Source of the DNA: Octopus vulgaris
Taxonomy: Eukaryota
Length of the DNA: 64,000 nt
Direction: 5' to 3'
NCBI GenBank assembly: GCA_951406725.2
Contig: OX597830.1
Location: forward strand, 79,856,001-79,920,000
This document shows positions 3,001-40,319 of this stretch, piece by piece. Within the stretch, counting starts at the first letter, position 1. Every line of letters starts with the position of its first letter. Below the pieces are notes generated by a model, which worked only from the letters and a program-made list of their open reading frames with translations, was not told the DNA's origin and did no database searches. The position numbers and the translations under genes were made by a program.

Positions 3001-5089
3001 GGTTGACAAGAGTTGTTTCCCTTTAATTGCTTTTTCTACAAAATTAAGCAAAGAATAATTTTTAAATATAGTAAGGCCTCCATATACGAGTTAATTTGTA
3101 CTCGGAAACCGCTCCTAAAACAAAAACTCGTAAAGCAGAGCAATAATTTTCCATAGTAGCAATGTTATAAACCGTAATTCGTTCCCAGAAAAATATTTTC
3201 TCTATAAAATATATAATACTCGTCAATAAATGGCAATAAGCACCAAGTTTTGTCAGTGAACAAACAGGTCGTGGTTTTCAAGACGAAGAAAATACTTTGA
3301 CACTAAAGAAAATTAAATTAACGGTTTTTGTGTGTTCTTGGATGGCTTACAAATATCTTCCAAGCTGCAATTGTTTTTTTTGTTTTAGCACACGATCTCA
3401 GATCAAGTCACTTGCTATGCAAATACATCTCCGTAAATGTAAAGAATATTTTATGTAAAGTGAAAAGAATGTCAAGATCATTTGTAATAAAAGAAATATT
3501 ATTATAATCGTTTTCTGAATCACTTTTACTCGCACTTGACTCGCGCACACCATCACTTGTAGACTCTCAGATATCAGCGGAGTCGACAACGAAGAAACGA
3601 GCCAGAGACTCGCTTTAATGAATCATTCATAATTTTACGAAGGACCGTGGAATATGTTCGCAAAACTATTCGCCAGCAAGAATATATATATTGGCTTCAA
3701 ATTTTGGCACAAGGCCAGTTACATCGACTACAGTGTTCAACTCGTGTTTATTTTATCGACCCCGAAAGGATGAAAAGCAAAGCCGATCCCGACGGTCTTT
3801 GAACTCAGAACGCAAAGTCTGAAGAAACGTCGCTAAGCATTTTCCCCGGCGCCATAACGATTTTACCTACTTGCCGCCTTTAAATATATAAATTTTGGTT
3901 TCAGATTTTTCGCACAAGGCCAGCATTTCGATGGAGTAGTTAAGTCTATTACACTGACTCCAGTACTCAACTGGTACTTATTTTAGCGACCCCGAAGGGA
4001 TGAAAAGCAAAGTCATCCTCGGTGGAATTTGAACTCGGAACATAAAGACAGACGAAATACTGTTAATCATTTTGTCTGGCGTATATTTAAAAGCGGGCGA
4101 GCTAACAAAATCGTTAGCACGCCGGACGAAATACTTAGCAACATTTCGTTCGTTTTTACGTTCTGAGTTCAAATTTCGCCAAGGTCGACTTTGCCTTTTA
4201 TTCCTTTCAGGGTCGATAAAATAGGTACCAGTCATGTACTGAGGTCGATGTATTCGACTTATTCACTCATCATAAATAATTGGCCTTGTGCTAAAATTTG
4301 AAACGAATATTAGGAATATATTATTATTATTATTATTAAGCGTGTTATTTTCCCTCATAATTCTTAATTTCTCTTTTCTTTCTTTTTTTTCTAAATTTTC
4401 CCGACTTGATTGGTGTAAAGAAATTTAATTTTGTCTCCACTAACCAAACACATCTAAAGAAAGTTGAAGAATTGTTAGAACGAAGCCAAAAATTAATATT
4501 GCGAATCTCTTAAGAGCAGGAACAGGTTGACAAGAGTTGTTTCCCTTTAATTACTTTTCCTACAAAATTATACAAAGAATAATTTTTAAATATAGTAAGG
4601 CCTCGATATACGAGTTAATTTGTACTCGGAAACCGCTCCTAAAACAAAAACTCGTAAAGCAGAGCAATAATTTTCCATAGTAGCAATGTTATAAACCGTA
4701 ATTCGTTCCCAGAAAAATATTTTATCTATAAAATATATAATACTCGTCAATAAATGGCAATAAGCACCAAGTTTTGTCAGTGAACAAACAGGTCGTGGTT
4801 TTCAAGACGAAGAAAATACTTTTGACACAAATGAAAATTAAATTAACGGTTTTTGTGTGTTCTTGGATGGCTTACAAATATCTTCCAAGCTGCAATTGTT
4901 TTTTTTGTTTTAGCACACGATCTCAGATCAAGTCACTTGCTATGCAAATACATCTCCGTAAATGTAAAGAATATTTTATGTAAAGTGAAAAGAATGTCGA
5001 GATCATTTCTAATAAAAGAAATATTATTATAATCGTTTTCTGAATCACTTTTACTCGCACTAGACTCGCGCACACCATCACTTGTAGAC
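1..5089 (+). repeat. Tandem array of a ~1.52 kb unit (3 full copies plus a partial copy; may continue left of the window)
   Basis: Near-identical blocks recur at ~1521-1525 bp spacing; for example 'tatagtaaggcctc' occurs at 21, ~1542, ~3068 and ~4591. The spurious ORFs recur at 352/1873/3398 and 932/2453/3978. Each unit is a Tigger-like 3' end, several SINE fragments and short unique spacers. Confidence 0.97.
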
Positions 5090-6460: not shown

Positions 6461-6573
6461 GAATGCAAGACTGCCCTTACTATGTCCGAGCAGAGCTGCT
6501 TGGGGACAAACTCGCACGTAACCTTCCAGATTTCAAAATTCACAAGATTGTGAAAACAACTGCAGAATGGCCG
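6461..6573 (+). CDS. MDH1B: MDH1B-like, coding exon 2 (first identifiable exon)
   Basis: Polypyrimidine tract plus AG at 6459-6460, and GT at 6574. Encodes (G)[37 protein letters not shown], matching the MDH1B N-terminus ([30 protein letters not shown]). Joins in phase 0 to 10239. Confidence 0.92.
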
Positions 6574-8314: not shown

Positions 8315-8350
<36 letters not shown>

Positions 8351-9040
8351 TCATCATCATTTGTGAATGCCTATGGCTCTGTGGTTAGAGCGTCGAGCTT
8401 ACGATTGGGAGGTTGTGAGTTTGAATCCCGGACTGGGCTGTGCGTTGTGTTCTTGAGCAAGACACTTTATTTCATGTTGCTCCAGTTCACTCAACTGTAG
8501 AAATGAGTTGCGTCATCACAGGTGCCGAGCTGTATCGGCCTTTGCCTTTCCCTTGGATAACACTGGTGGCGTGGAGAGGGGAGGCCGGTATGCATGGGCC
8601 ACTGCCGGTCTTCAGTAAACAACCTTGCGCAGACTTGTGCCTCAGAAGGTAACTTTCTAAGTGCAATCCCATGGTCAGTCATGAACGAAGGGGGTCTCAG
8701 CATATTATCATCATCATTATTTAACATACATTATCCATGCTGGTATGGGCTGGATGGTTTAACCCATGCTAGTAAGATGGAAGGCTACACCAGACTCCAG
8801 TCTGCTTTGGTATGGTTTCTATGGCTTAATGCCCTTCCTAATGCCAACAACTCCGAGAGTGTAATGGGTGCTTTATTCGTTCTACTGACACTGGTGCAGT
8901 TTGTGTGACACCAGTGTCTACCACGCCTGTGGTTTTACTTGGCTTGGTGGGTCTTCTTCCCAAGCTTGGCATAATGACAAAAGCCCAACACCCAAAGCAC
9001 AGCATAATGCCAAATGGTCTCAGTCCTTGCCTCTGTATGA

Positions 9041-9094
<54 letters not shown>

Positions 9095-9445
9095 ATGTCT
9101 TTGAGTCTATGTTTGCCCCCACCATCACCTGACAGCCAGTGTTGGTGTCTATGTCCCCATATCTTAGCAGTTCAGCAAAAGGAGACCAATGAAATAAGTA
9201 CCTGGCTTCAAATGAAAATAATAAAGACTGGGGTCGATTCAGTCAACTAAAATTCTTCAAAGCGGTGCCCCAGCATGGCCGCAGTCTGATGACCGAAACA
9301 AGTAAAAGATTCAAAAGGAAAAAGATATATATATGACAGTTGCTGCGTCTCTACACTCGATGATGGTGTGCAGCTCAGTGCAATCTTAGGTGCACTGTTT
9401 CCTTTAAGCTGTGCACTTGCTCGTGTGCATGCATATTTTACACCT

Positions 9446-10047
9446 ATAGGCACAGGAGTGGTTGTGTGGTAAGAAGCTTGCTTCCCAGCCATGTTGTTCT
9501 AGGTTCAATCTCACTGTGTGGCACCTTGGGCAAATGTCTTCTACTACAACCTCAGGTCAACCAAAGCCTTGTGAGTGGATCAGGTAAATGGAAACTGAAA
9601 AGAAGCCTGTCGTATATACATATACTCTTTTACTCTTTTACTTCTTTCAGTCATTTGACTGTGGCCATGCTGGAGCACTGCCTTTAGTCGAACAAATTGA
9701 CCCCAGGACTTATTCTTTGTAAGCCTAGTACTTATTCTATCAATCTCTTTTGCCGAACCGCTAGGTTACAGGGACATAAACACACTAGCATCAGTTGTCA
9801 AGCAATGTTGGGGAGACAAACACAGACACACAAAAATATATATACACACACACACATACACACACACATATATACATATATGCGACGGGCTTCTTTCAGT
9901 TTCTGTCTACCAAATCCACTCACAAGGCTTTGGTCGGCCCAAGGCTATAGTAGAAGACGCTTGCCCAAGTGCCACACAGTGGGACTGAACCCGGAACCAT
10001 GAGGTTGGTAAGCAAGCTACTTACCACACAGCCACTCCTGTGCCTAT
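9446..10047. mobile_element. Tail-to-tail pair of tRNA-derived SINEs between direct repeats
   Basis: A + SINE head at 9446 and a full - SINE ending at ~10047. 'tgtgcatgcatatttta' is repeated on both sides (~9424 and ~10050). The whole block is absent from the inverted copy (~21050-21070). Confidence 0.8.
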
Positions 10048-10238
10048 TATGTGCATGCATATTTTATACGTATTGCTCAAAAGATAATAATTGTGTGTAC
10101 ACAAACATTTTTCCTAGAGGAAATTGAATTTCTGCAATAGTTAATGGCTATGATATAATAGTTAATACCTATGCTTTATCAATGTTTCAATTCAATTTTA
10201 TGTTGGTTTTAATTTTTGTTTAACTTTGTGTGATTCAG

Positions 10239-11337
10239 GAATGGCTTTGTGAAATATGTGAGGCAAATGGTTGGAAGCATGAACAATCACCAATAATTTG
10301 GAGAGAATTGGTTGATCGAGGTGGGAAAGGTGTTTTAATTGGTGGATCGAATGAATTTGAAGAATATGCATACGGCTACTATGGCGTTACTATTGATTTG
10401 GACGGCAAAAGTATGAAAGTCATTGCTTATGAAAATCAAAGCACTAAAATCGAACTTGATGAAGAAGAAAGAGAAAGGATAAGAAACGAAAAATTCATTA
10501 AAGTGTGCATAACAAATGCTAGTAGCCCAGTTTGTTTCAGTTTGGTCGACAGTTTACTCTCAGGGAAAATATTTGGTGAAGAGAAAATTTCATTGTGTCT
10601 TCTGGACTGCGATCCAGCACAGACAGCTGAATTGCAATACATCGCTGAAAATATACAAAACATGGCTTATGGACTTCTGTATTTGAATGTCTTTGTTACA
10701 TCTGACTGTGAAAAAGCTTTTAAAGGAAGTAGAATTATTATCTTTTTGGATGAGGTAGAAAGGAAAGAAGAGGAAAAAGTACATCGGTGGACGGAAAGAA
10801 ACGCTGTTCTTTTTGGGTTTTATGGGACAACTCTGTTGAAAGTTGCCAAAAGTGACACGTTGCTATTAGTTGCAGGAAATAATTACATGTGTTTAAATAT
10901 GAGCATATTAAATGAGATTGTTTCTCACATTTCATCCAGAAATATTATTGGTGTTTCAAAAGTAATTGAAAACCAGGCCAAATCTGTTTTAGCTGAAAAA
11001 CTGCCAGCAAGCAGCTGCTCCATTGATAACGTTGTTATATTGGGAAGTATCAGCAATGATTATTTGATAGAATTGGACAAGACTTTAGTTAGAGAGTTTG
11101 ATTGTGCAGTTGTTGGTCCAGCTACATTCTCTCAGCCATTAAATGATATTTTTCATCAACAAAGCTGGCTCAAGAAGGAGTATGTAAATGAAGTCAGTTC
11201 AAGAAAACACGTCAATGAAATGAATTTACGGCACCCTACCTACCATCTCATTGGTCATGCCATAACAACAACATTAAATTACTGGTGGAATGGTTTATCA
11301 TCAAATGCCATATTCTCTGCGACTCTTATATCCGATG
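10239..11337 (+). CDS. MDH1B: MDH1B-like, large coding exon 3 (1099 bp)
   Basis: AG at 10237-10238 and GTAAGC at 11338. The motif SPIIWRELVDRGGKGVLIGG is diagnostic of MDH1B. It is followed by an LDH/MDH-fold region (KVCITNASSPVC, NVVILGSIS). Confidence 0.96.
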
Positions 11338-11479
11338 GTAAGCAAAATTCTTCCGTATTTAATCTTAATTCATTTCGGTTGCAGTCAGCGTTAAATTCTT
11401 TAGAAGCGAAAGTTCCAGTTTAGTTCTTTAGAGAGCATTTTTCTTGAACAGCTAGTCATGAAATTTATGACGACAACGA

Positions 11480-11540
11480 AATCATCATCATCATCATTAT
11501 CACCATCACCACCATCGCCGCCGCAACTACCACTATCACC

Positions 11541-11571
<31 letters not shown>

Positions 11572-11680
11572 CCACCATCATCACCATCATCATCATCATC
11601 ACCATCACCATCATCATCACCATCATCATCATCATCATCATCACCATCACCATCATCACTATCACCATCATCATCATCAT
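11480..11680. repeat. (CAT/CAC)n microsatellite following a tRNA-like head on - (11685-11757)
   Basis: Direct reading. A longer mirror copy lies at 19272-19637. Confidence 0.9.
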
Positions 11681-12374
11681 CCAGTCACTGCCTGGAATCA
11701 AACCCGGAATCTCGGGGTTAGTAGCCTGCACTCTTAACCACTATGCCATATGCCCGTGAGCAACTATGGAGTAAATTTTAGGGCTTATAACTCTAATATT
11801 CTCCTATCCTTCTTTAATACCGGTTCCCATATGCTGTTCATATCTGCACTCGATCTGCTTAGGAGCTTCTTGTGTCCTAGCATTTGTGCTGCTTCTTTTG
11901 GTTTCCATATTTTCCAGTACACTTAATTGAAAATGAGTACCAAAAATACCATCTTTGCTACATTCACCCACCTTTTTACGAAACTTTCACGAGACAAAAC
12001 CTGCCTCTCCATTCTCATCTTCCTTTTCAAGTGGTACCTGAAAAAGTTGATGAGTGATACTCTAGACCTCATAACCTGACTCTAGACTTCATAACCTGCA
12101 TTTAAAAGCTCATATCATTATTTGGTTACCACATGATATCCTACACGGGGTATATTCTAGGGCTGAATGCACATGTGGAATTCTGCTCTACATTAGATTG
12201 ACACAAGGATAATATAACATGGGGTTGGAGGATAATAAGCTTTAACTGTAGATCACAACATTTATTTCTTCCTCGCATGAAAGCTTTAAGTTGCTTTGTT
12301 TATATTCCAACCACTGACATAGCATTCTTGATGAAAACAAAGCTGTTTAGAAATACTTTCTTTTCTATTACCAG

Positions 12375-12505
12375 GTTGGTATGGTGTTCCAGAAGGCATC
12401 GCTTTTTCATTCCCAGTAGCATTTTATCTACCATTAGCATATTCTGTCATTGAAAATCTGAGTATATCTGAAAAATGCAGAGAAGATATGGATTTAATAA
12501 TCGAA
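12375..12505 (+). CDS. MDH1B: MDH1B-like, coding exon 4
   Basis: CAG acceptor at 12372-12374 and GTAAGT donor at 12506. Encodes (G)WYGVPEGIAFSFPVAFY...DLIIE, the MDH C-terminal 'YGVPEGxxFSFPV' motif. Phases are compatible with both neighbours. Too short for the ORF track. Confidence 0.93.
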
Positions 12506-12561
12506 GTAAGTATCTTGGATTTTTTCTTCTCTATTTTGGTTTTTAATCTCTAAACATTTAA

Positions 12562-12782
12562 ATCCTTTTGTTACCAACCCGGCTGAAACCGGCTCTGGCT
12601 CTGACGACAAATGTCTTGTTTTCATAAGTTTTAAATTAAAATCTTCCACCAAACCTTAGTCACAATTTATGTTCCTAACACTAGCTTAATGATAACTAAG
12701 TTATTTTACTCAATTCTTTGTTATATTTAAAGTAATTGAAAGAAACAAAAATCATCTTAAAATAAATGCAGTAACAAAAGGG
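12562..12782. mobile_element. TTAA-flanked MITE (piggyBac-like ends)
   Basis: The ends 'ttaa-atccttttgttac' and 'gtaacaaaagggttaa' are inverted and resemble the ends of the element at 56477-57564. Confidence 0.65.
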
Positions 12783-13189
12783 TTAAATCCTTTTGCAACC
12801 ATATTAATTATGAAATTCGCTATCCATGATAGATTTAGGAAAACAATCTATCTCTAGGTTATTAAGATGGTGTTTGGAATATACCAAAAAAGTTCTTTGA
12901 TAAAATTATGCCAAAAAGGTTATACACTTGCCCAAGATGCCACGCAGTGGGACTGAACCTGGAACCATGTATAAACAGTTTGAAATGCCAACCACTTTAC
13001 AGCGTGTACTGGATGCTATTGTAAGGGGAGATCACTCTGTAGAGCACAAGACTTGAACTGACCGGGTTACAGTGGAGGATCCCTTTCAGCTGAATGGAGA
13101 TACAGTTGAGAAGTGGCTTTGAGCTAGATGAGAGGTTGAAGTATGAAAAAGGAACCAGAACTAAAGAGGTTTCTTTGGGTGTGGTCATC

Positions 13190-13660
13190 AGCATATAGCA
13201 GTTCCCACAGGTATTTGCTCTTAAATTCTTCCATTGTTGCCTGGATAATTGTGATGAATAGAAAAGGCAACTGTGAACCAAATCCTGATGAACTCCTGTC
13301 TGTACTCTAAACTCATCATTGTACTCATAGCTAAACTCTCACCTTACTAACAGCATCTCTGTACATGACTTTTATGGTTCTCACAAGCCATTCTTCCACT
13401 AACTAGCTCTCTCAACAAGTAGCATGCAAAAACACCTTTTGAGCATAGTTGTTGCCAGAACTGCCTGACTGGCCCTTGTGCCAGTGGTACATAAAAGCAC
13501 CCACTACACTCTCAGAGTGGTTGGCATTAGGAAGGGCATCCAGCTGTAGAAACTCTGCCAGATCAGATTGGAGTCTGGTGCAGCCTCTGCCTCACCAGTC
13601 CTCAGTCAAACCGTCCAACCCATGCCAGCATGGAGGGCAGACATTAAACGATGATGATGA

Positions 13661-13700
<40 letters not shown>

Positions 13701-14100
13701 AGTGCTGTGTGGAAAGAAGCTTGCTTCCCAATCTCATGATTCCAGGTTCAGTCCCACTGCATAGCACCTTGGGCAAACCACAAGACCACAAAGTGAGAAA
13801 TCATGAAGACAGCTTAGTACAACAGCTTACTTTTAGCTTAGTGCTTCTCCTGCACACTAGTCTCATTCATAGCACTTTCGTCCCCGGCACAAAATCAAAC
13901 CACATCTCATCTACTCTCTCTCTTTCTTTCTCCAATTAATTGAGCTATAACTCTTTCCATAGCTTTCTCGACCTAGTCCAGCTGTTTGATGCCTCTGTAG
14001 TTACTTCAATCTGTGGCAGACCCTTTACTTTTGTAGCAGTTGTCTTCGATGCTGTTTAATCAGTCATTCGGTATGACATCTTCCTGTATAACCTCATTCA
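13190..14100 (-). mobile_element. Decayed RTE-clade LINE RT fragment interrupted by SINEs (~13445-13775)
   Basis: Minus-strand remnants NYRGIK, EFRVQTGVHQ and WELLYADD, with stops and frameshifts. Confidence 0.8.
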
Positions 14101-14145
14101 CTATACTGATAACTAGGGTTTATCCTTTTCCTCCACACCCACACC

Positions 14146-14183
<38 letters not shown>

Positions 14184-14620
14184 ACATCATCCTCAACATC
14201 CATATCATGATAATCATAATCACGATCTTCATTATCATCATCATCATCATCATTGTGATCATTTTAATGGTGGTGGTGGTGGTGGTGGTGGTGATGTGTA
14301 TGTGTGTGTCTATGTATTTATGAAGCAGCGGGCATGGCTGTGTGGTTAGGGAGCTTGCTTCCTAGCTATGTGGTTTCGGGTCAGTCCCACTGCGTGGCAC
14401 TTTGGGTAGGTGTCTTTCACTATAGCCCCGAGCTGACCGGAGCTTTGTGATTGAATTCGGTAGGTGGAAGTTACTGCCGTGTGTGTATATGTGCGTGTAG
14501 GTGCTTGTGCCTCTCCGAAAGAGAGAGAGGGAAGTCTTCTTTCTTCATGCATAATTTTACATATGAAACCTTCATTTTGGTCACTGGTGTACATTAATTA
14601 ATATGTTATATTTTTGACAG

Positions 14621-14795
14621 AACTTGGTAAAAGATAGAGCCTTGTTTGTAGTCAAGGATGGAAAATTGATCTCAAAAGTTGTGTCTGTTGAATCATTACC
14701 AGAATCAGAAGATACTGATTACTCAGCGTTTATGAGTTCCAGAACACCGTCCAGTCAAAGAAGTGACGTCTTAAGCTTTCTGTTGGAAGAAATGG
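14621..14795 (+). CDS. MDH1B: MDH1B-like, coding exon 5
   Basis: tttttgacAG acceptor and GTAAGG donor at 14796. Open frame NLVKDRALFVV...LLEEM, phase 0 in and phase 1 out, matching both flanking exons. Confidence 0.82.
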
Positions 14796-14849
14796 GTAAG
14801 GCAAAAAAAAAAAAAAATCGAGGCTTACTAGTTTTGCTATCAAATTACA

Positions 14850-15450
14850 CAAAGGTGGTGAGCTGGCAGAGTCGTTACCAAGCTGGGGGAAATGCTTAGT
14901 GACCTTAGTTCTGAGTTCGAATGCCATTAAGGTCGACTTTGCATTTCATCCTTTTGGTGTCAATAAAATAAGTACCAGTTGAGTACTGGGGCTGATGTAA
15001 TCACCTTACCCCTCCCTCAAAATTGCTGGCCTTGTGCCAACATCTGAAACTGTTATTAAATTACTTGAAAGCAGTGAGATGGCAGAATTAGTATCACACT
15101 AAGGCGGCAAGCTGGCACCAGTTGCTAGCACTGGGGTTCAAATTCTGCCGAGGTCGACTTTGCCTTTATCCTTTCGGGTCGATAAATAAGTACTTATGCA
15201 CTGTTGATATAATCACCGTCCTTTGTCTGTCCTTGCTTGTCCTCTCTGTGTTTAGCCCCTTGTGGGCAGTAAAGAAATAGGTATTTCATCTGTCTTTACA
15301 TTCTGTGTTCAAATTCTGCTGAGGTCGACTTTACCTTTTATCCTTTCAGGGTTGATAAATTAATTACCAGTTGCGTACTGCAGTCGATCTAATCGACTGG
15401 CCCCCTCCCCCAAAATTTCTGGCCTTGTGCCTAGAGTAGAAAAGAATATT
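14850..15450 (+). mobile_element. SINE cluster ('tttcatcctttcggggtcgataaa' family)
   Basis: Repeated heads 'ggcggcaagctggca' and the shared core are also seen at 17616-18213 and in the 1.5 kb array units. Confidence 0.8.
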
Positions 15451-16039
15451 TACCAAGAGAGAAAACCCTCATATGGTTAACTGGTGCACAAAGGCACGTC
15501 ATATCTATCACCAGTGGCAGACAATCCCCACTACTTCCACTGCTCAGACTATCACATCATATGATTTTGGCCTGATTGGGCTTTTTCAATATAACCATAT
15601 GGATGTCTTGTCTCTCGGTAAATATTGCAGTATTTAATTGTTTTAATGCAAATTTCACTTTTAAGTGGTGAATATTTTACCTTTGGTTCTTAATATTACC
15701 TCTGTCACTCTATTTTTTAATAAGCCCACTGTCCTTTAGCAACATCAGTGCCAGTTATGGCTCTGTATTTCTATGTATATTGCTAGCATGGCAGTTACTG
15801 CTATTTCCAGCTATTTGGTGTCCATCACTGAAATGGCCAAATGAGGCTGAAATCACGTGATCTGGTAGTCCAAGCAGTGGAAGTAGTAGTGATTGTCTAC
15901 TGCTGGCGATAACTATGATGTGCTTCTATGCACCATATAAGCATATGAGAGTTTTCTCCCTTGGTAAATATTACATCATTTGTGTTCTAATGCAACGCCC
16001 TCTTTTAAGTGGTGAATATTTTACCTTATATATATATGT

Positions 16040-16440
16040 ATAGGTGCAGGAGTGGCTGTGTGGTAAGTAGCTTGCTTACCAACCACATGGTTCCGGGTTC
16101 AGTCCCACTGCGTGGCACCTTGGGCAAGTGTATTCTACTATAGCCTCGGGCTGACCAAAGCCTTGTGAGTGGATTTGGTGGACGGAAACTGAAAGAAACC
16201 CGTCGTATATATGTATATGTATATATATATGTGTGTGTGTTTGTGTGTCTGTGTTTGTTCCCCCGTATCTTATGGTGTGTTTACGTCCCCCGTATCTTAG
16301 TGGTTCGGCAAAAGAGACCGATAGAATAAGTTTTAGGCTTACAAGGAATAAATCCTGGGGTTGATTTGCTCAACTAAGGGCAGTGCTCCAGCATGGCCGC
16401 AGTCAAATGACTGAAACAAGTAAAAGAGTAAAGAGAGAAT
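16040..16440 (+). mobile_element. Full-length tRNA-derived SINE
   Basis: Head 'ggtgcaggagtggctgtgtggtaagtagcttgct...ggttcagtccc', an internal (TA)(TG) tract and tail 'gaaacaagtaaaagagtaaa'. The same family occurs at ~9625-10047, 16820-17220, 18486-18920, 54488-54960 and 61068-61520. Confidence 0.88.
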
Positions 16441-16819
16441 ATGAATTATACAATAGCTGAAGTGTACATTATTATAATATGCATCAATACCAATCTTACC
16501 ATTTGGTTTTGCACCAGAGATTCAAAAGAGTGTTAGGTAACAATCCAATCATGTAACCCTACACTCTTCATAGCTACATACAATTTATATCTGGATATTT
16601 CTACTTTTCTATTCAGTGTTTACTTCACTAAAGCACCTCATTTGTTTTTAATGAAATACAGAGCTAGTCAAAGTGCCATGTCAGAGAATTGCCTTTGATG
16701 TTCATGTTTGGTTTGCATGCTAGCAGGAGTTAGAGGGTAGGAGTGAAGTACAGAGATGTAGATGTGGTGGTGGTGGTGGTAGGTGGTGGGTGGAGAATCA
16801 TTCAGGAGATTAATTGATT

Positions 16820-17220
16820 ACTCTTTTACTCTTTTACTTGTTTCAGTCATTTGACTGCGGCCATGCTGGAGCACCGCCTTTAGTCGAGCAAATCGACTCC
16901 GGGACTTATTCTTTGTTAGCCCAGTACTTATTCCATCGGTCCCTTTTGCTGAACCGCTAAGTGACGGGGACGTAAACACACCAGCATCGGTTGTCAAGCA
17001 ATGCTAGGGGGACAAACACACACACACACAAACACACATACATATATATATATACATATATACGACAGGCTTCTTTCAGTTTCCGTCTACCAAATCCACT
17101 CACAAGGCATTGGTCAGCCCGGGGCTATAGTAGAACACACTTGCCCAAGATGCCATGCAGTGGGACTGAACCCGGAACCATGTGGTTGGTTAGCAAGCTA
17201 CTTACCACACAGCCACTCCT
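16820..17220 (-). mobile_element. Full-length tRNA-derived SINE, inverted relative to 16040-16440
   Basis: Reverse complement of the same family. It ends ~45 bp before the last exon acceptor. Confidence 0.88.
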
Positions 17221-17267
17221 GATTGATTGCTTTTTATATATATATATTTTTTTTTTTTCTAATTCAG

Positions 17268-17491
17268 TTGAAGAACAAGAAGCGCTGGAGAGGAGACGTA
17301 CGAAAATGTCCGCATCCTCAATGCCACGTGGGAGCCTAGACAGTGAGCACGACTTGGAGCTTGAAAATCTAGACGCTATAATGCCTGAAGAAGAGGTGGA
17401 AGAGGAAATTTCAGAAACTGCATTAAATACTGAAGATATCGAGATAGAAGATAATAATAATAATCCACCAGCAGAAGAAACTGAACAATAA
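17268..17491 (+). CDS. MDH1B: MDH1B-like, terminal coding exon (acidic low-complexity tail)
   Basis: Poly-T plus CAG acceptor at 17265-17267. A phase-1 join gives V-EEQEALERRRTKMS...EETEQ-TAA. Confidence 0.8.
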
Positions 17492-17615
17492 TTAGTTTAT
17501 AATCTAAACTAAAATATTTTATTATTGAAAAAGATCAAAATATTTCTAGTTTTTATATTTCATTTTGATTATGATTTTTTTCTTCTTATTTCTTGTGGTG
17601 CTGGAGATAATGGGT

Positions 17616-18213
17616 AAGGCGGCAAGCTGGCAGAAACGTTAGCACGCTGGGCGAAATGCGTAGCCGTATTTCGTCTGCCGTTACGTTCTGAGTTCAAATT
17701 CCACCGAGGTCGACTTTGCCTTTCATCCTTTCGAGGTCGATAAATAAAGTACCAGTTTCGCACTGGGGTTGATGTAATCGACTTAATCCATTTGTCTGTC
17801 TTTGTTTGTCCTCTCTGTGTTTAGCCCCTTGTGGGTAATAAAGAAATTGGTATTTCGTCTGCCGTTACGTTCTGAGTTCAAATTCCACCGAGGTTGACTT
17901 TGCCTTTCATCCTTTCGGGTTGATAAATAAAGTACCAGTTTTGCACTGGGGCTGATGTAATCAACTTAATCCCTTTGTCTGTCTTTGTTTGTCCTCTCTG
18001 TGTTTAGCCCTTTGTGGGTAATAAAGAAATAGGTATTTCGTCTGCCGTTACGTTCTGAGTTCAAATTCCACCGAGGTCGACTTTGCCTTTCATCCTTTCG
18101 GGGTCGATAAATAAAGTACCAGTTTTGCACTGGGGTTGATGTAATCGACTTAATCCCTTTGTCTGTCTTTGTTTGTCCCCTCTATGTTTAGCCCCTTGTG
18201 GGTAGTAAAGAAA
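17616..18213 (+). repeat. SINE with three tandem ~182 bp copies of its body
   Basis: 'gtatttcgtctgccgttacgttctgagttcaaattccaccgagg' occurs at ~17667, ~17850 and ~18033. Confidence 0.92.
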
Positions 18214-18667
18214 TATATATTATATTTTCCAGCATACAATCTAAAGTTTTCAAGCCAAAATTTACAGCCAAAAATGAGGTACGAGGGACGTTCAATAAGT
18301 AATTCCCCTGACCCACTTGCAGTTGGAAGGGCATCCAGCTGTAGAAACTCTGCCAGATCAGATTGGAGTCTGGTGCAGCCTCTGCCTCACCAGTCCTCAG
18401 TCAAACCGTCCAACCCATGCCAGCATGGAGGGCGGACATTAAACAATGATGATGATGATATATATATATATATATATATATATATGGAGTGCTGTGTGGA
18501 AAGAAGCTTGCTTCCCAACCTCATGATTCCAGGTTCAGTCCCACTGCATGGCACCTTGGGCAAGTGTCTTCTTCTATAGCCTCAGGCCAATCAAAACCTT
18601 GTGAGTGGATTTGGTAGACAGAAACTGAAAGAAGTCTGTCGTATGTATGTGTGTACTTTTGTGTGTG

Positions 18668-18710
<43 letters not shown>

Positions 18711-19012
18711 TTGTGTCTCTGTGTTTGTCTCTCCACCATCGCTTAACAACCAATGTTGGTGTGTCTACACCCTCGTAAATTAGCAGTTCAGCAAAAGAGA
18801 CTGATAGAATGAGTGCTGGACTTGACTTACAAAGAATAAGTCCCGGGTCGATTTGTTTCACTAAAGGTGATGCTCGAGCATGGCCACAGTCAAATGACTG
18901 AAACAAATAAAAGAACAAAAGAAAGAACATATACAAATACACACACACTTGTGCAAATACATACACACACACACACACACAGACACACACACACACACAC
19001 ACATGGAAACTA

Positions 19013-19527
19013 GTATTTTTGGTACTCATTTTCAATTAAGTGTACTGGAAAATATGGAAACCAAAAGAAGCAGCACAAATGCTAGGACACAAGAAGCTCC
19101 TAAGCAGATCGAGTGCAGATATGAACAGCATATGGGAACCGGTATTAAGGAAGGATAGGAGAATATTAGAGTTATAATTTACTCCATAGTTGCTCATGGG
19201 CATATGGCATAGTGGTTAAGAGTGCAGGCTACTAACCCCGAGATTCCGGGTTTGATTCCAGGCAGTGACTGGATGATGATGATGATGATGATGATGGTGA
19301 TGGTGATGATGATGATGATGATGGTGATGGTGATGATGGTGGTGATGATGATGGTGATGATGATGGTGATGGTGATGGTGATGATGATGATGGTGATGGT
19401 GATGATGATGGTGGTGATGATGATGATGATGGTAATGGTGATGATGGTGGTGATGATGATGGTGATGGTGATGATGATGGTGATGATGATGATAGTGGTA
19501 GTGGCAGTGGCGGCGGTGATGGTGATA

Positions 19528-19580
<53 letters not shown>

Positions 19581-21358
19581 GATGGTAATAGTGGTGGTGG
19601 TGGCGGCGGTGATGGTGATGATGATGATGATGATGATTTCGTTGTCGTCATAAATTTCATGACTAGCTGTTCAAGAAAAATGCTCTCTAAAGAACTAAAC
19701 TGGAACTTTCGCTTCTAAAGAATTTAACGCTGACTGCAACCGAAATGAATTAAGATTAAATACGGAAGAATTTTGCTTACCATCGGATATAAGAGTCGCA
19801 GAGAATATGGCATTTGATGATAAACCATTCCACCAGTAATTTAATGTTGTTGTTATGGCATGACCAATGAGATGGTAGGTAGGGTGCCGTAAATTCATTT
19901 CATTGACGTGTTTTCTTGAACTGACTTCATTTACATACTCCTTCTTGAGCCAGCTTTGTTGATGAAAAATATCATTTAATGGCTGAGAGAATGTAGCTGG
20001 ACCAACAACTGCACAATCAAACTCTCTAACTAAAGTCTTGTCCAATTCTATCAAATAATCATTGCTGATACTTCCCAATATAACAACGTTATCAATGGAG
20101 CAGCTGCTTGCTGGCAGTTTTTCAGCTAAAACAGATTTGGCCTGGTTTTCAATTACTTTTGAAACACCAATAATATTTCTGGATGAAATGTGAGAAACAA
20201 TCTCATTTAATATGCTCATATTTAAACACATGTAATTATTTCCTGCAACTAATAGCAACGTGTCACTTTTGGCAACTTTCAACAGAGTTGTCCCATAAAA
20301 CCCAAAAAGAACAGCGTTTCTTTCCGTCCACCGATGTACTTTTTCCTCTTCTTTCCTTTCTACCTCATCCAAAAAGATAATAATTCTACTTCCTTTAAAA
20401 GCTTTTTCACAGTCAGATGTAACAAAGACATTCAAATACAGAAGTCCCATAAGCCATGTTTTGTATATTTTCAGCGATGTATTGCAATTCAGCTGTCTGT
20501 GCTGGATCGCAGTCCAGAAGACACAATGAAATTTTCTCTTCACCAAATATTTTCCCTGAGAGTAAACTGTCGACCAAACTGAAACAAACTGGGCTACTAG
20601 CATTTGTTATGCACACTTTAATGAATTTTTCGTTTCTTATCCTTTCTCTTTCTTCTTCATCAAGTTCGATTTTAGTGGTTTGATTTTCATAAGCAATGAT
20701 TTTCATACTTTTGCCGTCCAAATCAATAGTAACGCCATAGTAGCCGTATGCATATTCTTCAAATTCATTCGATCCACCAATTAAAACACCTTTCCCACCT
20801 CGATCAACCAATTCTCTCCAAATTATTGGTGATTGTTCATGCTTCCAACCATTTGCCTCACATATTTCACAAAGCCATTCCTGAATCACACAAAGTTAAA
20901 CAAAAATTAAAACCAACATAAAATTGAATTGAAACATTGATAAAGCATAGCCATTAACTATTATATCATAGCCATTAACTATTGCAGAAATTCAATTTCC
21001 TCTAGGAAAAATGTTTGTGTACACACAATTATTATCTTTTGTACATTAGGCATAAAATATGCATGCACATGAGCAAGTGCACAGCTTAAAGGAAACAGTG
21101 CACCTAAGATTCCACTGAGCTGCACACCATCATCAAGTGTAGAGACGCAGCAACTGTCATATATATATCTTTTTCCTTTTGAATCTTTTACTTTGAAGAA
21201 TTTTAGTTGAATGAATCGATCCTAGTCTTTATTATTTTCATTTTAAGCCAGGTACTTATTTCATTGGTCTCCTTTTGCTGAACTGCTAAGATATGGGGAC
21301 ATAGACACCAACACTGGCTGTCGGGTGATGGTGGGGGCAAACATAGACTCAAAGACAT

Positions 21359-21416
<58 letters not shown>

Positions 21417-22155
21417 TCATACAGAGGCAAGGACTGAGACCATTTGGCATTATGCTGTGCCTTGGGTGTTGGGCTTTTGTCATTATGCCAAGCTTGAGAA
21501 GAAGACCCACCAAGCCAAGTAAAACCACAGGCGTGGTAGATACTGGTGTCACACAAACTGCACCAGTGTCAGTAGAACGTATAAAGCACCCATTACACTC
21601 TTAGAGTGGTTGGCATTAGGAAGGGCATCCAGCCATAGAAACCATGCCAAAACAGACTGGAGTCTGGTGTAGCCTTCCATCTTACTAGCCCTGGTTGAAC
21701 CGTCCAGCCCATTCCAGCATGGATAATGGATGTTAAATGATGATGGTGATGATGATGATGATGATGATATGCTAAAACTCCCTTCGGTCATGACTGACCA
21801 TGGGATTGCACCTAGAAAGTTACCCTCTGAGGCACAAGTCTGCGCAAGGTTGTTTATGGAAAACCAGCAGTCGCTCATGCATACCGGCCCCCTCTGCATG
21901 CCACCAGTGTTATCCAAAGGAAAGGCAAAGGCCGATACAGCTTGGCATCAGTGACATTGTAAATCATTTCTACAGTTGAGTGAACTGGAGCAACATGAAA
22001 TAAAGTGTCTTGCTCATGAACACAACATGCAGCCCGGTCCAGGATTCAAACTCACAACCTCACAATCGTAAGATCAACGCTCTAACCACTGAACCATGTG
22101 CATTCACAGATGATAATGATGATGATGATGATATATATATATATATATATATAAT
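19013..22155 (-). repeat. Inverted duplicate of ~8315-11949 (intron 2 part, exon 3, intron 3 part)
   Basis: Reverse-complement identity across unique intron sequence, the exon, SINEs and microsatellites. The breakpoint 'aatgagtaccaaaaatac' lies at 11949/19013. Confidence 0.96.
19781..20880 (-). pseudogene. MDH1B: Orphan inverted copy of MDH1B exon 3 with a +1 frameshift
   Basis: 1100 bp versus 1099 bp. There is an extra C at ~20446-20448 (gaagtcccat vs gaagtccat). The split ORFs 20413-20889 and 19695-20603 match the + exon except for V>I and S>T. Splice sites are retained. No copies of the other exons were seen. Confidence 0.88.
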
Positions 22156-22320
22156 ATATGTGTTTGTTTGTGTGTACTCCCCAAATTGCATGCATAAAAT
22201 TTATGCAAACTACAAGAACTATAGACCCACCCGGCATCCCGATTGACGACACCCCCCCCCCCCCCAACCCCACCGTTCCCCCAGCACCCCCCGATTAACT
22301 TTCCTCCTAAGACTATTCAC

Positions 22321-22538: not shown

Positions 22539-22586
<48 letters not shown>

Positions 22587-23121
22587 AGTATGTGTATATG
22601 TATATGTATGTATATGTGTATGTATGTGTATGTGTATGTGTATGTATGTATGTGTATGTATATATGTGTATATATATGTGTGTATATGTATGTGTGTGTA
22701 TATATGTATGTGTATATATATATGTGTAGATATATATATATATATGTGTGTATATATATATATGTATATATATATATGTGTGTACGCTCGTGTGTTTATG
22801 TATATGTAAGTATGTAGAGTTGTGTGTATGTGCATGTATATATGTATATATACATATGTGTAGATAGGTATATATGCGTGTATGCTTATATGTATGTTTC
22901 CGTCTGTACAAAGGGTAACTGCATGTGTATATATATCTATTATTCCTTATTCATTATTTATTACATGAGTATGCGTTTGTATGCATGAATGCATTTATGT
23001 ATATAAGGAGGCGCGTGAGTGTGTGTATGTGTATGCATTCGTATAGACATATGTATACATTTATGCATGTATGTGCTTGTGTGTATGTATGTGTGTATAT
23101 GTATGTATATATGCACACATG

Positions 23122-23152
<31 letters not shown>

Positions 23153-23278
23153 GTATGTGTATATATATATATGTGTGTATGAGTATGTGTATATATATGC
23201 GTGTATGTGTAATGTGTGTGTATATGTGTGTATATATGTGTGTATATATGTGTGTGTATGTATGTATGTGTGTATATA

Positions 23279-23325
<47 letters not shown>

Positions 23326-23472
23326 GTATATGTGTATGTATGTGTATGTGTGTGTATGTGTATGTATGTATATGTATATGTGTGTATATATGTGTGTATA
23401 TATGTGTGTAGGTATGTATGTATGTGTATATATGTGTGTGTATATATATATATATGTATGTATATATATATA

Positions 23473-23517
<45 letters not shown>

Positions 23518-25250
23518 GTATATAATAATGAAATTATTGTATACAGTGCTTAGGTGCACCATAACTTCTCAAAAGTTCGTATAAAGTATATGCAGTAATG
23601 TACTAATGTCTGGAAAGTAAGCAGTGCATGAGTCAGATACATGCTTGCGTGTGTATGGAGGGGAGAAAATCAGGTGTAGTGTTGGAAGTTTTGAAGGATG
23701 CAGGAAAAGCATTGTTAATTTTATAGATACCCAGTTTGTAATAATAGTATTTATATTATCGGCACACTTTGGAAGATGAAAGGCAAAATTAGTTCCACTG
23801 AGATTTGAACATAGAGTGGAAGGGATGTAACTAAATATTATTTTCAGCTCTCCACTGATTTTGCTATACAACACCCTTTCAATCGGTAAATTTTTTTCTT
23901 TGATTTTGTTTTCTTTTATATAACAATAATAACAACAATAATAATAATAATTGTGAACAGTGGCTTTCAGGTGCACTACAACTCATCTAAAGTGTATATA
24001 TATATCAGGTATGTAGTTTCGGGGCGGATTTCGGAGCATGTAGGGCCTTAAAAGATGCAGTGTCATGGCAGTCAACAACTGACGAGGCAAAGTTTATTCC
24101 ATGCTTCAGCAACTCTGAGCGTGAAAATGTTTCCCGAAAGTCATGGGAGCTGTATTGTTTTCTGACTTTGTAGGCATGTGTCCACGTGTGTTAGACACAT
24201 GGAGATCAAAAAGGTGTTCAGTGTTGTTGTTGGTGAGGTGGTTGATAACTTTGTGGGTGTTTACCAAGTCCGTCGCCAAACGCCGGAGCTTCAGTGAATC
24301 CATGCCCAGGGAAACAAGGCGCTCAGAATATGGTAGGTGTCTGATGGAGGGTATATGCGTTTGGTTGCACGTCTCTGGACAGATTCCAGGAGGTCAATGT
24401 TCTGTGCAAGATAGGGGTTCCAAACTGATGATGCGAATTCCAAGTGTGGTCGTACCATAGCTGCTATACAGTTTTAAATAGATGGCTGGAGAGCGGCTAA
24501 CAAAAGACCTGCTGAGTGATGCCTACACTCGTGTGTTTATGTATATGTAAATATGTAGAGTTGTGTGTATGTGCATGTATATATGTATATATACATGTGT
24601 AGATAGGTATATGCGCGTATGCTTATATGTATGTTTCCGTCTGTACAAAGGGTAACTGCATGTGTATATATATCTATTATTCCTTATTCATTATTTATTA
24701 CATGAGTATGCGTTGTATGCATGAATGCATTTATGTATATAAGGAGGCGCGTGAGTGTGTGTATGTGTATGCACTTGTATAAACACATGTATACATTTAT
24801 GCATGTATGTGCTTGTGTGTATGTATGTGTGTATATGTATGTATATATGCACACATGTATATATATATATGTATATATATATATATGTATGTGTATATAT
24901 ATATATGTGTGTATGAGTATGTGTATATATATGCGTGTAAAAATGTGTGTAAATGTATGTATATATGTGTGTGTATGTATGTGTGTGTATATGTGTATGT
25001 GTGTATATATGTATGTGTATATGGATATATATATATATATATATATATGTGTGTATGTATGTGTGTGTGTATGTATATATATATATATATATATATATGT
25101 ACGCTTGTGTGTTTATGTATATGTAGGTATGTAGAGTTATGTGTGTGTGTATTTATGTACATATACATATGTGCAAATAGGTATATATGGGTATGTTTAT
25201 ATGTATGTATCCGTATGTATAATGGGTAACTGCAAGTATATATATATATA

Positions 25251-25295
<45 letters not shown>

Positions 25296-25479
25296 TTGAG
25301 TATGCATGTATGTATATATGTATATGCCTGTATGCATGTATGTATTTATGAACATAAGGGAGGCGCGTGTGTGTGTGGATGTGCATGCATATGTATAGAT
25401 ATGTGTATACATTAATGCATGTATGTACTTATGTGTATATATAGATGTGTGTGTGTGTGTGTGTATGTGTACGTATATG

Positions 25480-25550
<71 letters not shown>

Positions 25551-26105
25551 ATGTGTATATATGTATGAATGTATATGTGTATGTATATGTACATGTATAT
25601 GTATGTATATATATATATATATGTATATGTGTATGTATATGTATGTATGTGTATGTATGTGTATATGTGTATATATATTAATTAGTGTATATGTAGGGAC
25701 TAGTCTTATGTGAGTGTTTTGAGGTATGTATGTGTATGCGTGTATGTGAATATACATGAATGTATGCGTGTGCGTATGTGTATGTGTGTACGTCTGAGTG
25801 TGTGGGCGTGAGTGAGTGCTTGCGTTCGTATAAGTAAGTAGATAGATAAACGGAATCTTAAGCTCATCCCTTGAGACCGGCTGACCTCGGCCAAGATAAA
25901 AATAAAAATAAAAATAAAGATATAAACAAATGTAGTAATAATAAAATTAAAATAAGAGAATAAAAATGTGTGTGTATGTGTGTGCATGTATATGCATTTG
26001 TATAGGTGCGAGTGAGTATACATATGTGTATGTATATGTATGTATATGTGTATCTGTGTGTACGTTCATGGGTATGTGTATGTATATGTATATATATGTA
26101 TGTAT

Positions 26106-26137
<32 letters not shown>

Positions 26138-26330
26138 GTATGTGTGTATGTATGTATATGTGTATATATATATCATATGTATATGTGGGTATGTATGTAT
26201 CGGGATGTACAGATATATGTGAATATGTGCTTTTTTACGTGCCACCTGTATATATGTGTATGTATATATATATATATATATATATATGTAGATATGTACA
26301 AGTGAGAGTCTCCTTACTTACCTAAACTCT
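22321..26330. repeat. (TA/TG)-rich microsatellite field with three copies of a complex unit
   Basis: The unique anchors 'tgtgtttatgtatatgta..gtagagtt', 'gggtaactgca' and 'ggaggcgcgtg' recur in units starting at ~22785, ~24527 and ~25100. Confidence 0.85.
23950..24522 (-). mobile_element. CR1-like LINE 3' fragment
   Basis: The minus strand reads DSLKLRRLATDLVNTHKVIN...SNTRGH...FFTLRVAEAWNKL, typical of the CR1 ORF2 C-terminus. An (ATT)n tail follows. Confidence 0.8.
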
Positions 26331-26521
26331 ATTTTTCTATTTATTTTTTTATTCTTTTATTTTATTTTATTTATTCTTTTATCTACTTTACCACTGATTC
26401 CTTTGACCACTCCCCTAATAATGACATGTTTTTGCGCCATGCCTACCCCCCAAAAAGTCCCCCACCACCACCCATTTAAACCTGCCTAAATGTATAAATG
26501 CCAAAACAACTCTTGTCTACT

Positions 26522-26572
26522 AGCTTCCTGATGATTTCTTTTGAATGAAACAGTTCTAGTCCTGTAGAAGCT
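26522..26572 (+). ncRNA. Type I hammerhead ribozyme motif (stem II weakened)
   Basis: agcttc-CTGATGA-t ttc tttt gaa t-GAAA-cag ttctagtc ctg-TA-gaagct. Stem I has 6 bp, the core is intact, and stem III leads to a GUA cleavage triplet (after 26566). The stem II closing pair is U-U rather than G-C. Confidence 0.7.
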
Positions 26573-26701
26573 CCTTCTTATATAATAAATTAATTTACTC
26601 TGCTATGTATTGAGTACCTTATTTACTGTGGTTAACCCCGACTCAACCCGGGACCTACATATATATATATATATCTATATATATATTAATATGTGTGTGT
26701 T

Positions 26702-26754
<53 letters not shown>

Positions 26755-31098: not shown

Positions 31099-31100
31099 AA

Positions 31101-33185: not shown

Positions 33186-33186
33186 C

Positions 33187-37620: not shown

Positions 37621-37669
37621 TCTTCTGTAATTCGCAATGGAATACTGCATCTGGATTTGAACTCTAGCT

Positions 37670-40259: not shown

Positions 40260-40319
<60 letters not shown>

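What the first reader, a model, noticed from the sequence alone, without database searches (positions are those of the whole stretch)
8315..22155. MDH1B exon 3 has a near-identical antisense twin just downstream of the gene: a possible long dsRNA or RNA-editing hairpin
Seen: a ~3.1 kb inverted copy of intron 2/exon 3/intron 3 begins ~1.5 kb after the stop codon. Its exon translation differs only by V>I, S>T and one extra base. Known: coleoid cephalopods recode mRNA heavily by ADAR A-to-I editing, which needs dsRNA, and long hairpins can feed small-RNA pathways. Inference: a read-through pre-mRNA would fold the 1.1 kb main exon into an almost perfect duplex, making the 'pseudo-exon' a cis-regulator of its own gene.
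Basis: partly seen in the sequence, partly recalled or inferred. Interest (0 to 1): 0.7.

Follow-up and report, generated by a model that had tools for sequence, protein, structure and literature searches.

The report
Mirror exon yields edited antisense RNA
An octopus cilia gene (MDH1B) has a near-perfect reversed copy of its main exon just downstream, as part of a young multi-copy duplication, and one RNA dataset holds a rare fragment of that exon with a cluster of changes typical of the editing enzyme ADAR acting on the opposite strand, likely because run-on transcription into the mirror copy makes double-stranded RNA, probably as a by-product rather than a control switch.

Summary
The twin is real: 19013-22158 mirrors 11949-8318, starting 1,522 bp after the stop, and the exon differs by two substitutions and one G. 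It is not a lone 3-kb insert. It is the inner end of a ~27-kb inverted arm in a young MDH1B amplicon: 7 exon-3 copies, 4 gene bodies, 3 gene+twin units and only one exon 1, all on contig C17. Depth in another DNA run fits real amplification.

Spliced mRNA in 4 of 4 organism-A RNA runs carries the window copy's private allele. The deepest run also holds a 217-nt contig (depth 8.4 against 236) with 16 differences. All 12 listed are T>C, i.e. A>G on an antisense exon-3 RNA, with ADAR's 5'-neighbour bias. No genomic copy explains it.

However, read-through was not shown, the bulk mRNA is unedited, the signal is one contig in one of five RNA runs, and molluscs reportedly lack endo-siRNAs. Best reading: a low-level by-product duplex. 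A regulatory role is unproven.

The parts
1..5089 (+). Tandem array of a 1,525-bp unit (intron-1 fragment plus SINE-like pieces), part of arm A; CpG o/e 1.1-1.5; possible substitute promoter (untested)
6461..6573 (+). MDH1B exon 2 (first exon present in the window; has an in-frame [10 protein letters not shown]); 4 copies in the genome
8318..9440 (+). Intron-2 part mirrored in the twin; about 10% diverged in 8360-8880, about 2% in 8880-9440
9441..10048 (.). ~600-bp insertion (SINE-like) present in the gene arm, absent from the twin
10239..11337 (+). MDH1B exon 3 (1,099 nt); 7 copies in the genome, 0.07-0.93% apart; identical to the main mRNA contig
10526..10742 (-). Stretch covered by the T>C-only RNA contig of run X14 (A>G on the antisense strand); mirror position in the twin about 20376-20593
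11338..11949 (+). Intron-3 part mirrored in the twin; 11949 is the inner end of arm A
12375..12505 (+). Exon 4 (in the spacer, not mirrored)
14621..14795 (+). Exon 5 (4 copies in the genome)
17268..17491 (+). Exon 6 coding part to the stop; first AATAAA downstream is at 17743, inside a tandem repeat
18279..19012 (+). Linker found in the three gene+twin units and not in the twin-less gene; 18319-18563 is a 94-96% copy of intron 4 (13524-13776)
19013..22158 (-). The twin: inverted copy of intron 3 / exon 3 / intron 2; inner end of arm B
19781..20880 (-). Twin exon 3 (1,100 nt, one extra G); read on the + strand it is antisense to exon 3
22551..26773 (.). Simple-repeat expansion specific to arm B, shared with the other two twins
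26780..27770 (-). Degraded inverted copy of intron 1 / intron 2 pieces with exon 2 deleted; 75 small gaps against the sister arms, like a poorly polished consensus
27771..45913 (-). Rest of arm B: inverted 1,525-bp repeats and inverted copy of the ~15-kb transposon-rich block that lies upstream of the gene, outside the window

Best explanation
The twin is the inner end of a real, young inverted duplication of an expressed MDH1B gene, and transcription that likely runs on through it would make antisense exon-3 RNA, which is predicted to pair with exon 3 over about 1.1-1.9 kb and is likely hyper-edited by ADAR at low level, probably as a by-product with little effect on the bulk mRNA. Shown: the anatomy, the copy counts in the assembly, spliced expression of window-type alleles, and one T>C-only RNA contig with ADAR neighbour bias. 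Inferred: (1) arm B arose from a copy like the 69.3-Mb gene, lost exon 2 by a deletion between SINE-like repeats, and was cut in intron 3; (2) exchange between copies keeps exon 3 nearly identical while intron 2 next to large indels drifts; (3) polymerase passes the weak 3' end and reaches the twin exon 2.3-3.4 kb after the stop; (4) the antisense RNA pairs with exon 3 in the same nascent transcript or with nearby mRNA after 3' cleavage; (5) edited molecules stay a small minority.
For: Same twin junction in 3 of 3 units. Exon copy counts 7/4/4/1 for exons 3/2/5/1. DNA contig depths in X1: 210 (exon 3), 124 (exon 2), 27.4 and 20.5 (single-copy stretches); exon 3/exon 2 ratio 1.69 in X1 and 1.5-1.8 in X7, organism B. 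O. sinensis records hold a full model and an exon-3-only model on one contig (P0086, P0089). Spliced RNA contigs match the window exon with 0 differences in X14, X13 and X11; X8 and X14 carry 10441G and the window-only exon-2 allele. X14 minor contig: 16 differences in 217 nt, 12 of 12 listed are T>C. On the antisense strand 0 of 12 have a 5' G (10 of 37 unchanged A's do, one-sided p=0.042) and 9 of 12 have 5' U/A (12 of 37, p=0.012). This is the preference reported for ADAR across metazoans (PMC9989829, passages). No diverged genomic copy of that stretch: 7 of 7 matches are the known copies. Divergence gradient 27/295, 20/300, 5/260 in intron 2 against 2/300, 0, 0, 0 across the exon; two independent four-gamete conflicts among copies.
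Against: The editing signal is one contig at depth 8.4, in 1 of 5 RNA runs laid; the other four had exon depth 3.6-25. Four of its 16 differences lie near the contig ends and were not listed. There is no matched DNA, the library type is not on record, and the 3' G preference was not significant (4 of 12 vs 9 of 37, p=0.40). No sense-strand A>G contig was seen, though a hairpin should be edited on both arms. The contig lacks the window twin's extra G and the private alleles of the other twins (10610, 10578), so it fits antisense transcription across the gene itself as well as the twin. The tool warns that contig depth is not copy number, and the baseline rests on two contigs. Variant shuffling during assembly could mimic gene conversion.
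Confidence: 0.55

Rival explanations
1. Functional cis-regulator: the hairpin or antisense RNA lowers or gates MDH1B output, for example by diverting read-through transcripts to hyper-editing and nuclear loss, or by helping silence surplus copies of the amplified gene.
For: The editing-like cluster exists. The twin is kept in three units and apparently in a second species. Only one allele type appears in mRNA although four gene bodies exist. MDH1B is a structural heterodimer subunit of radial spoke 3 (bioRxiv 10.1101/2025.05.19.654877, passages), so dosage could matter (inference).
Against: The minor contig has about 3.6% of the main contig's depth and the bulk mRNA is unedited. Retention is explained by youth: arms are only 0.3-1.3% apart in the flanking block. 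Silence of other copies could simply reflect missing promoters (one exon 1). Molluscs reportedly lack an siRNA pathway (PMC12479628, passages).
Confidence: 0.15
2. The antisense RNA does not come from read-through into the twin. It comes from transcription on the opposite strand across the gene, for example from arm B, which carries the same upstream block and 1,525-bp repeats, or from a cryptic promoter. It then pairs with mRNA or with the sense twin exon.
For: The edited contig has 0 gaps and matches the window gene and the 79.81-Mb gene at all diagnostic sites, without the twin's extra G. Both arms share the upstream block. Antisense editing that reads as U-to-C on the sense gene is known (PMC9852825, abstract).
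Against: The extra G may be an assembly error or private allele (1 of 7 copies; the arm holds a noisy stretch). Run-on of 2-3 kb past an expressed gene's end is the simpler source (general knowledge). No antisense promoter was found.
Confidence: 0.15
3. The twin is inert duplication debris, and the T>C contig has another source: an edited RNA copied back into that animal's DNA, a library chemistry effect, or an assembly oddity.
For: Single contig, single run, no matched DNA. Earlier AI notes on this genome describe edited RNA written back into DNA (leads only).
Against: No such copy in G000 (7 of 7 matches are 99-100% identical). The changes do not follow the O. bimaculoides protein, so they are not that species' reads. 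The ADAR-type 5' bias argues against random error. A retrocopy of edited RNA would itself imply that the duplex once existed.
Confidence: 0.1
4. The window's unit is an assembly duplicate: the second haplotype of the 79.80-79.82-Mb unit joined at an artificial fold-back, with exon alleles mis-phased between repeats. The true expressed gene would then be the exon-1-bearing one with its own twin, and the hairpin model would apply there instead.
For: The large palindrome has a loop of only 10 bp (C17:79,840,695-704) near the contig end, with arms about 0.2-1.7% apart in most 2-kb blocks. A noisy stretch lies at 26780-27770. mRNA alleles match the window copy, yet exon 1 sits 12.7 Mb away. A scaffold gap adjoins the 67.2-Mb unit.
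Against: The arms differ right up to the loop (18 substitutions in the first 2 kb), unlike a single fold-back read. X1 depth fits about 7-8 exon-3 copies better than 5. Seven distinct exon sequences need at least four copies per haploid genome. The twin itself survives under this rival.
Confidence: 0.2

Closest known systems
Young Drosophila hairpin-RNA (hpRNA) loci born beside their parent gene, e.g. D. simulans hp58 next to CG17385 (PMC10317233; abstract and sections 7 and 12 read)
   Same: A recent, local, partial inverted duplication of a coding exon, often in several copies, able to form long dsRNA matching the parent gene.
   Different: Fly hpRNAs are separate transcripts diced by Dcr-2 into 21-22-nt siRNAs that repress targets. 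Here one arm is the gene's own exon, the loop is 7 kb and holds exons 4-6, the observed mark is A-to-I-type editing, and siRNAs were not tested and are reported absent in molluscs.
ADAR editing of antisense RNA read as U-to-C on the sense gene (DDX58, lincRNA-p21; PMC9852825, abstract) and sense-antisense editing across metazoans (PMC9989829, passages)
   Same: T>C cluster on the sense strand with ADAR's 5' neighbour preference.
   Different: There the antisense RNA is transcribed from the same locus. Here a mirrored genomic copy offers a second source and a possible intramolecular fold; which source is used was not resolved.
Hyper-editing of inverted-repeat dsRNA in transcripts (Alu-type; recalled)
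   Same: Long near-perfect duplex from two inverted copies a few kb apart, edited at many A's in a minority of molecules.
   Different: The repeat here is a 1.1-kb protein-coding exon of a housekeeping ciliary gene, not a transposon.
Palindromic amplicons homogenised by gene conversion (mammalian X/Y type; recalled)
   Same: Nested inverted arms about 99% identical, several gene copies of a cilia/flagellum gene, patchwork sharing of variants.
   Different: Not on the likely sex chromosome: two Z-marker families map to C16, not C17. Most copies lack exon 1.

Membership tests
MDH1B | Best matches are MDH1B proteins, well above MDH1 | tested here: met
   PDB MDH1B chains E 2.5e-60 and 6.5e-58 against 5e-16 for MDH1; 90% identity to O. 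bimaculoides MDH1B. Pfam scan of the exon alone gave 0 families.
ADAR hyper-edited dsRNA | Long complementary partner available | tested here: met
   1098 of 1099 nt pair in the predicted duplex; 827-bp perfect run.
ADAR hyper-edited dsRNA | Dense single-type A>G cluster in RNA | tested here: met
   12 of 12 listed differences are T>C on + (16 in all, 4 unlisted), one contig in 1 of 5 RNA runs.
ADAR hyper-edited dsRNA | 5' G avoided, 5' U/A favoured; 3' G weakly favoured | tested here: met
   5' G 0 of 12 vs 10 of 37 (p=0.042); 5' U/A 9 of 12 vs 12 of 37 (p=0.012); 3' G not significant (p=0.40).
ADAR hyper-edited dsRNA | Changes absent from the same animal's DNA | tested here: inconclusive
   Absent from G000; no matched DNA run for X14 was available.
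ADAR hyper-edited dsRNA | Editing on both strands of the duplex | tested here: inconclusive
   No sense-strand A>G contig; contigs drop rare variants.
Read-through intramolecular hairpin | One transcript containing exon 3 and the twin | not testable with these tools
hpRNA / endo-siRNA locus | Dicer-dependent 21-22-nt siRNAs from the arms | not testable with these tools
   No small-RNA run listed; PMC12479628 (passages) reports no endo-siRNAs in molluscs.
hpRNA / endo-siRNA locus | Target derepressed when the hairpin or Dicer is lost | not testable with these tools
   Needs genetics.
Site-specific recoding via an editing-complementary sequence | High-level A>G sites in the mature mRNA exon | tested here: not met
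   0 differences in the main exon-3 contig of X14, X13 and X11; the three differences in X8 against the 67.19-Mb copy are all genomic variants. Majority level only.
Sex-chromosome amplicon | Located on the Z chromosome | tested here: not met
   Families of two published Z genes (SPAG9, EIF5; PMC10925132 Table S6) hit C16 (plus C1 and C20), not C17; a third family (OCIA) found nothing. Family-level markers, so indirect.
Conversion-homogenised palindrome | Exchange of variants between arms | tested here: inconclusive
   6 of 10 pairs among five chosen shared columns show four gametes (two independent conflicts), plus a divergence gradient; assembly shuffling not excluded.

The most novel reading that the evidence does not exclude
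In octopus, where long dsRNA goes to ADAR rather than to an siRNA pathway, a young inverted copy of a gene's own main exon works as a built-in attenuator. Transcripts that overrun the 3' end fold the coding exon into a kilobase duplex, are hyper-edited and removed, and this buffers the dosage of an amplified ciliary structural gene. It would be an ADAR-based counterpart of the fly hpRNA, caught at birth.
Probability: 0.12. Interest if true: 0.8.

Novelty: new variant of a known kind. Interest (0 to 1): 0.5.

Why it matters
It is a natural, datable test case for how new editing substrates arise in cephalopods: a whole coding exon has gained a near-perfect complementary partner, yet the mature mRNA stays unedited at majority level while an antisense fragment is heavily changed. 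That makes two open points testable at one locus: whether long coding dsRNA in molluscs goes to ADAR instead of RNAi, and whether such duplexes ever seed stable recoding sites. In practice it warns that editing calls in multi-copy exons here are confounded: two apparent A>G sites against the 67.19-Mb copy are differences between genomic copies. It also shows that three gene models (P0002, P0006, P0090) join a PIF1-helicase fragment to the twin exon and are likely annotation artefacts.

Tried and rejected
Sex-chromosome amplicon: rejected (uninformative).

Lone 3.1-kb insertion: rejected, the arm continues to about 45,900.

Extra G as a twin-defining frameshift: rejected, 1 of 7 copies.

O. bimaculoides contamination as source of the T>C contig: the implied residues do not match its protein.

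Edited genomic retrocopy in G000: none found.

Telomere repeats (motifs recalled) in the 258 kb fetched up to the contig end: none.

First exon of the expressed mRNA: a search for short N-terminal proteins returned 13 hits, none labelled as cephalopod; unresolved.

Intronic RNA contigs at depth under 3 (X11 10060-10177, X8, X19) could not be assigned to gene or twin and are not used.

No listed holder was on record as RNA; the 'RNA?' runs are treated as RNA because their contigs join exon 2-3 and exon 3-4.

Pfam gave no hit for the exon alone. Earlier-finding look-ups by place and by sequence returned nothing.
Full report
OBSERVATION. Self-comparison and a full alignment confirm the inverted copy: 8318-11949 (+) against 22158-19013 (-). 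The exon has two substitutions (V>I, S>T) and one extra G. The arm starts 1,522 bp after the stop, and the twin exon lies 2,290-3,389 bp after it. Exons 2-6 have canonical splice sites and give an open 579-residue frame from an ATG in exon 2, identical to database protein P0001 from its residue 12. The protein is MDH1B, labelled Octopus vulgaris by the source. In mouse, MDH1B forms a structural heterodimer with MDH1 in radial spoke 3 of cilia (bioRxiv 10.1101/2025.05.19.654877, passages).

WHAT THE TWIN BELONGS TO. The window is G000:C17:79,856,001-79,920,000, 44 kb from the contig end. Exon 3 has 7 matches in the genome, exons 2 and 5 have 4 each, and exon 1 has one, all on C17. There are four gene bodies: G1 (window), G2 (79.81 Mb), G3 (67.19 Mb, the only one with exon 1) and G4 (69.32 Mb). 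G1-G3 each have a downstream twin (T1-T3) with the same inner junction and linker. The twin continues outward through simple repeats, a remnant lacking exon 2, inverted 1,525-bp repeats and an inverted copy of the block upstream of the gene. Each complete unit is therefore a palindrome with ~27-kb arms around a 7-kb spacer holding exons 4-6. G1/T1 and G2/T2 are in turn the two arms of a larger palindrome, with arms of at least 96 kb and a 10-bp loop at 79,840,695-704. G4's intron 2 is twin-like (2.5-3.7% from twins, about 9% from G1/G2) and keeps exon 2, so the twins likely derive from a G4-like copy (inference). G4 alone has a different 3' flank after window position 18278. A further remnant without exons lies at 68.32 Mb.

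IS IT REAL? In DNA run X1 the collapsed contigs have depth 210 (exon 3) and 124 (exon 2), against 27.4 and 20.5 for two stretches private to G3. That gives ratios of about 8-10 and 4.5-6, close to the assembly's 7 and 4. The exon 3/exon 2 ratio is 1.69 in X1 and 1.5-1.8 in X7, a second organism. The tool cautions that depth is not copy number, and the baseline is two contigs. O. sinensis records include a full model and an exon-3-only model on one contig (P0086, P0089). So orphan exon-3 copies are very likely real. The outer palindrome is less secure: a 10-bp loop near a contig end, a noisy stretch at 26780-27770 and the lone extra G all suggest local assembly weakness, although the arms differ by 18 substitutions in the 2 kb next to the loop.

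WHY THE EXON IS SO ALIKE. Most of the arms are simply young (0.2-1.3% in three 2-kb samples of the flanking block). The odd part is intron 2, about 10% diverged next to large indels, falling to about 2% and then to 2 changes in 1,200 bp across the exon. Among five shared columns chosen from the 20 variable ones, 6 of 10 pairs show all four gametes, which amounts to two independent conflicts. This fits exchange between copies; mis-phasing in assembly could mimic it.

EXPRESSION. Five 'RNA?' runs were laid (X8, X14; X14, X13, X11, X19). Their contigs join exon 2 to 3 and exon 3 to 4, so they are spliced RNA. All four organism-A runs (two studies) carry 10441G, found in 1 of 7 genomic copies (G1). 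X8 and X14 also carry the G1-only exon-2 allele, while the DNA majority has the other letters. The main contig has 0 differences from the window exon in X14, X13 and X11. The mRNA has sequence upstream of exon 2 that does not follow intron 1 (about 78 nt in X14 by subtraction), but I could not read it. Either G1 uses a new first exon, or exon 1 belongs with G1-type exons and the repeats are mis-phased or converted. This is unresolved (one search did not help).

THE EDITING SIGNAL. X14, the deepest run (236), has a second contig over 10526-10742 at depth 8.4 with 16 differences and no gap. All 12 listed are T>C; four near the ends are not listed. T>C on the sense strand is A>G on an antisense RNA. 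Read that way, 0 of 12 sites have a 5' G (10 of 37 unchanged A's do; p=0.042) and 9 of 12 have 5' U or A (12 of 37; p=0.012); 3' G is not enriched (p=0.40). PMC9989829 (passages) reports this 5' preference in all metazoans it examined, and PMC9852825 (abstract) shows that antisense editing reads as U-to-C on the sense gene. The genome has no diverged copy of this stretch, and the changes do not match O. bimaculoides. The other four runs were 3.6-25 deep and showed no such contig. Limits: one contig, no matched DNA, no sense-strand A>G counterpart, and no letter that ties it to a twin rather than to the gene's own opposite strand.

MECHANISM AND RIVALS. The simplest source of antisense exon 3 is run-on transcription of the expressed gene into the twin; the first AATAAA after the stop is 252 bp downstream, inside a repeat. 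The RNA could fold back within a nascent transcript or pair with mRNA after cleavage. Because arm B carries the same upstream block, convergent transcription is a real alternative and would also give a duplex. The bulk mRNA is unedited and the edited form is a few percent by depth, so I read it as a by-product (0.55). The rivals are a regulatory role (0.15), another antisense source (0.15) and an inert twin with a spurious contig (0.10). A separate 0.2 goes to the window's unit being a mis-joined haplotype, which would move the same model to G2/T2 or G3/T3. The small-RNA branch is weak: PMC12479628 (passages) finds no endo-siRNAs in a survey of 32 molluscs and used O. bimaculoides among its animals.

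COMPARISON AND NOVELTY. It is built like young Drosophila hpRNA loci born beside their parent gene (PMC10317233, abstract and sections 7 and 12), but membership (siRNAs, target repression) was not testable. It works most like inverted-repeat or antisense hyper-editing. It fails the test for majority-level recoding. It is not shown to be Z-linked: using PMC10925132 (parts 1-2 of 5 and supplement Table S6 passages), two marker families map to C16; PMC13122204 (passages) gave no vulgaris assignment. The listings (titles and abstract starts only; one search listed 15 of 2,571) showed no paper on an octopus MDH1B amplicon or its editing; subscription journals are not covered.

Noticed in passing
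G000:C17:79,840,695-79,840,704 (15 kb left of the window): Centre of a palindrome with arms of at least 96 kb and only a 10-bp loop, formed at a 4-bp inverted microhomology inside a LINE-like fragment; a fold-back or breakage-fusion-bridge product, or an assembly join.
   Followed up: partly
G000:C17:67,201,861 and 69,325,500: The only exon 1 (at G3, - strand) and the only twin-free 3' flank (at G4, + strand) lie at opposite ends of a 2.1-Mb interval; flipping that interval would give one complete gene plus one more palindromic unit, suggesting an inversion between MDH1B copies or a mis-join.
   Followed up: partly
window 1-5089 and 27771-31098: 1,525-bp tandem unit built from an intron-1 fragment and SINE-like pieces, CpG-rich (o/e 1.1-1.5 against about 0.5 in the intron); candidate substitute promoter.
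   Followed up: partly
window 36561-37616 (-): PIF1-like helicase fragment (probably Helitron; label recalled). Database models P0002, P0006 and P0090 fuse it to the twin exon, and the predicted first exon of P0001 (MCHMK) lies in this block; probably ab initio joins, but not excluded as real splicing.
   Followed up: partly
L010 (G2 exon 5, about C17:79,810,880): One-base deletion in an A run that would shift G2's frame; error or pseudogenisation.
   Followed up: no
window 18319-18563: Linker before the twin contains a 94-96% direct copy of intron 4 (13524-13776), like a templated insertion at the rearrangement junction.
   Followed up: partly
window 7650-8254: AT-rich fold-back of about 600 bp (91% self-complementary) in intron 2, where arm A and arm B differ.
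   Followed up: no
window 52068-55487 and 58703-62044: Direct duplication of about 3.4 kb at 92%, part of a ~6.5-kb tandem block repeated in the outer arms and at 69.27-69.29 Mb.
   Followed up: no
L048-L051 (C17:68.32-68.35 Mb): Older (about 3.5% diverged) copy of the upstream block and intron 1 that stops before exon 2.
   Followed up: partly
G000:C16:29.9 Mb and 32.2 Mb: eIF5- and SPAG9-family matches suggest C16 is the Z chromosome of this genome.
   Followed up: partly
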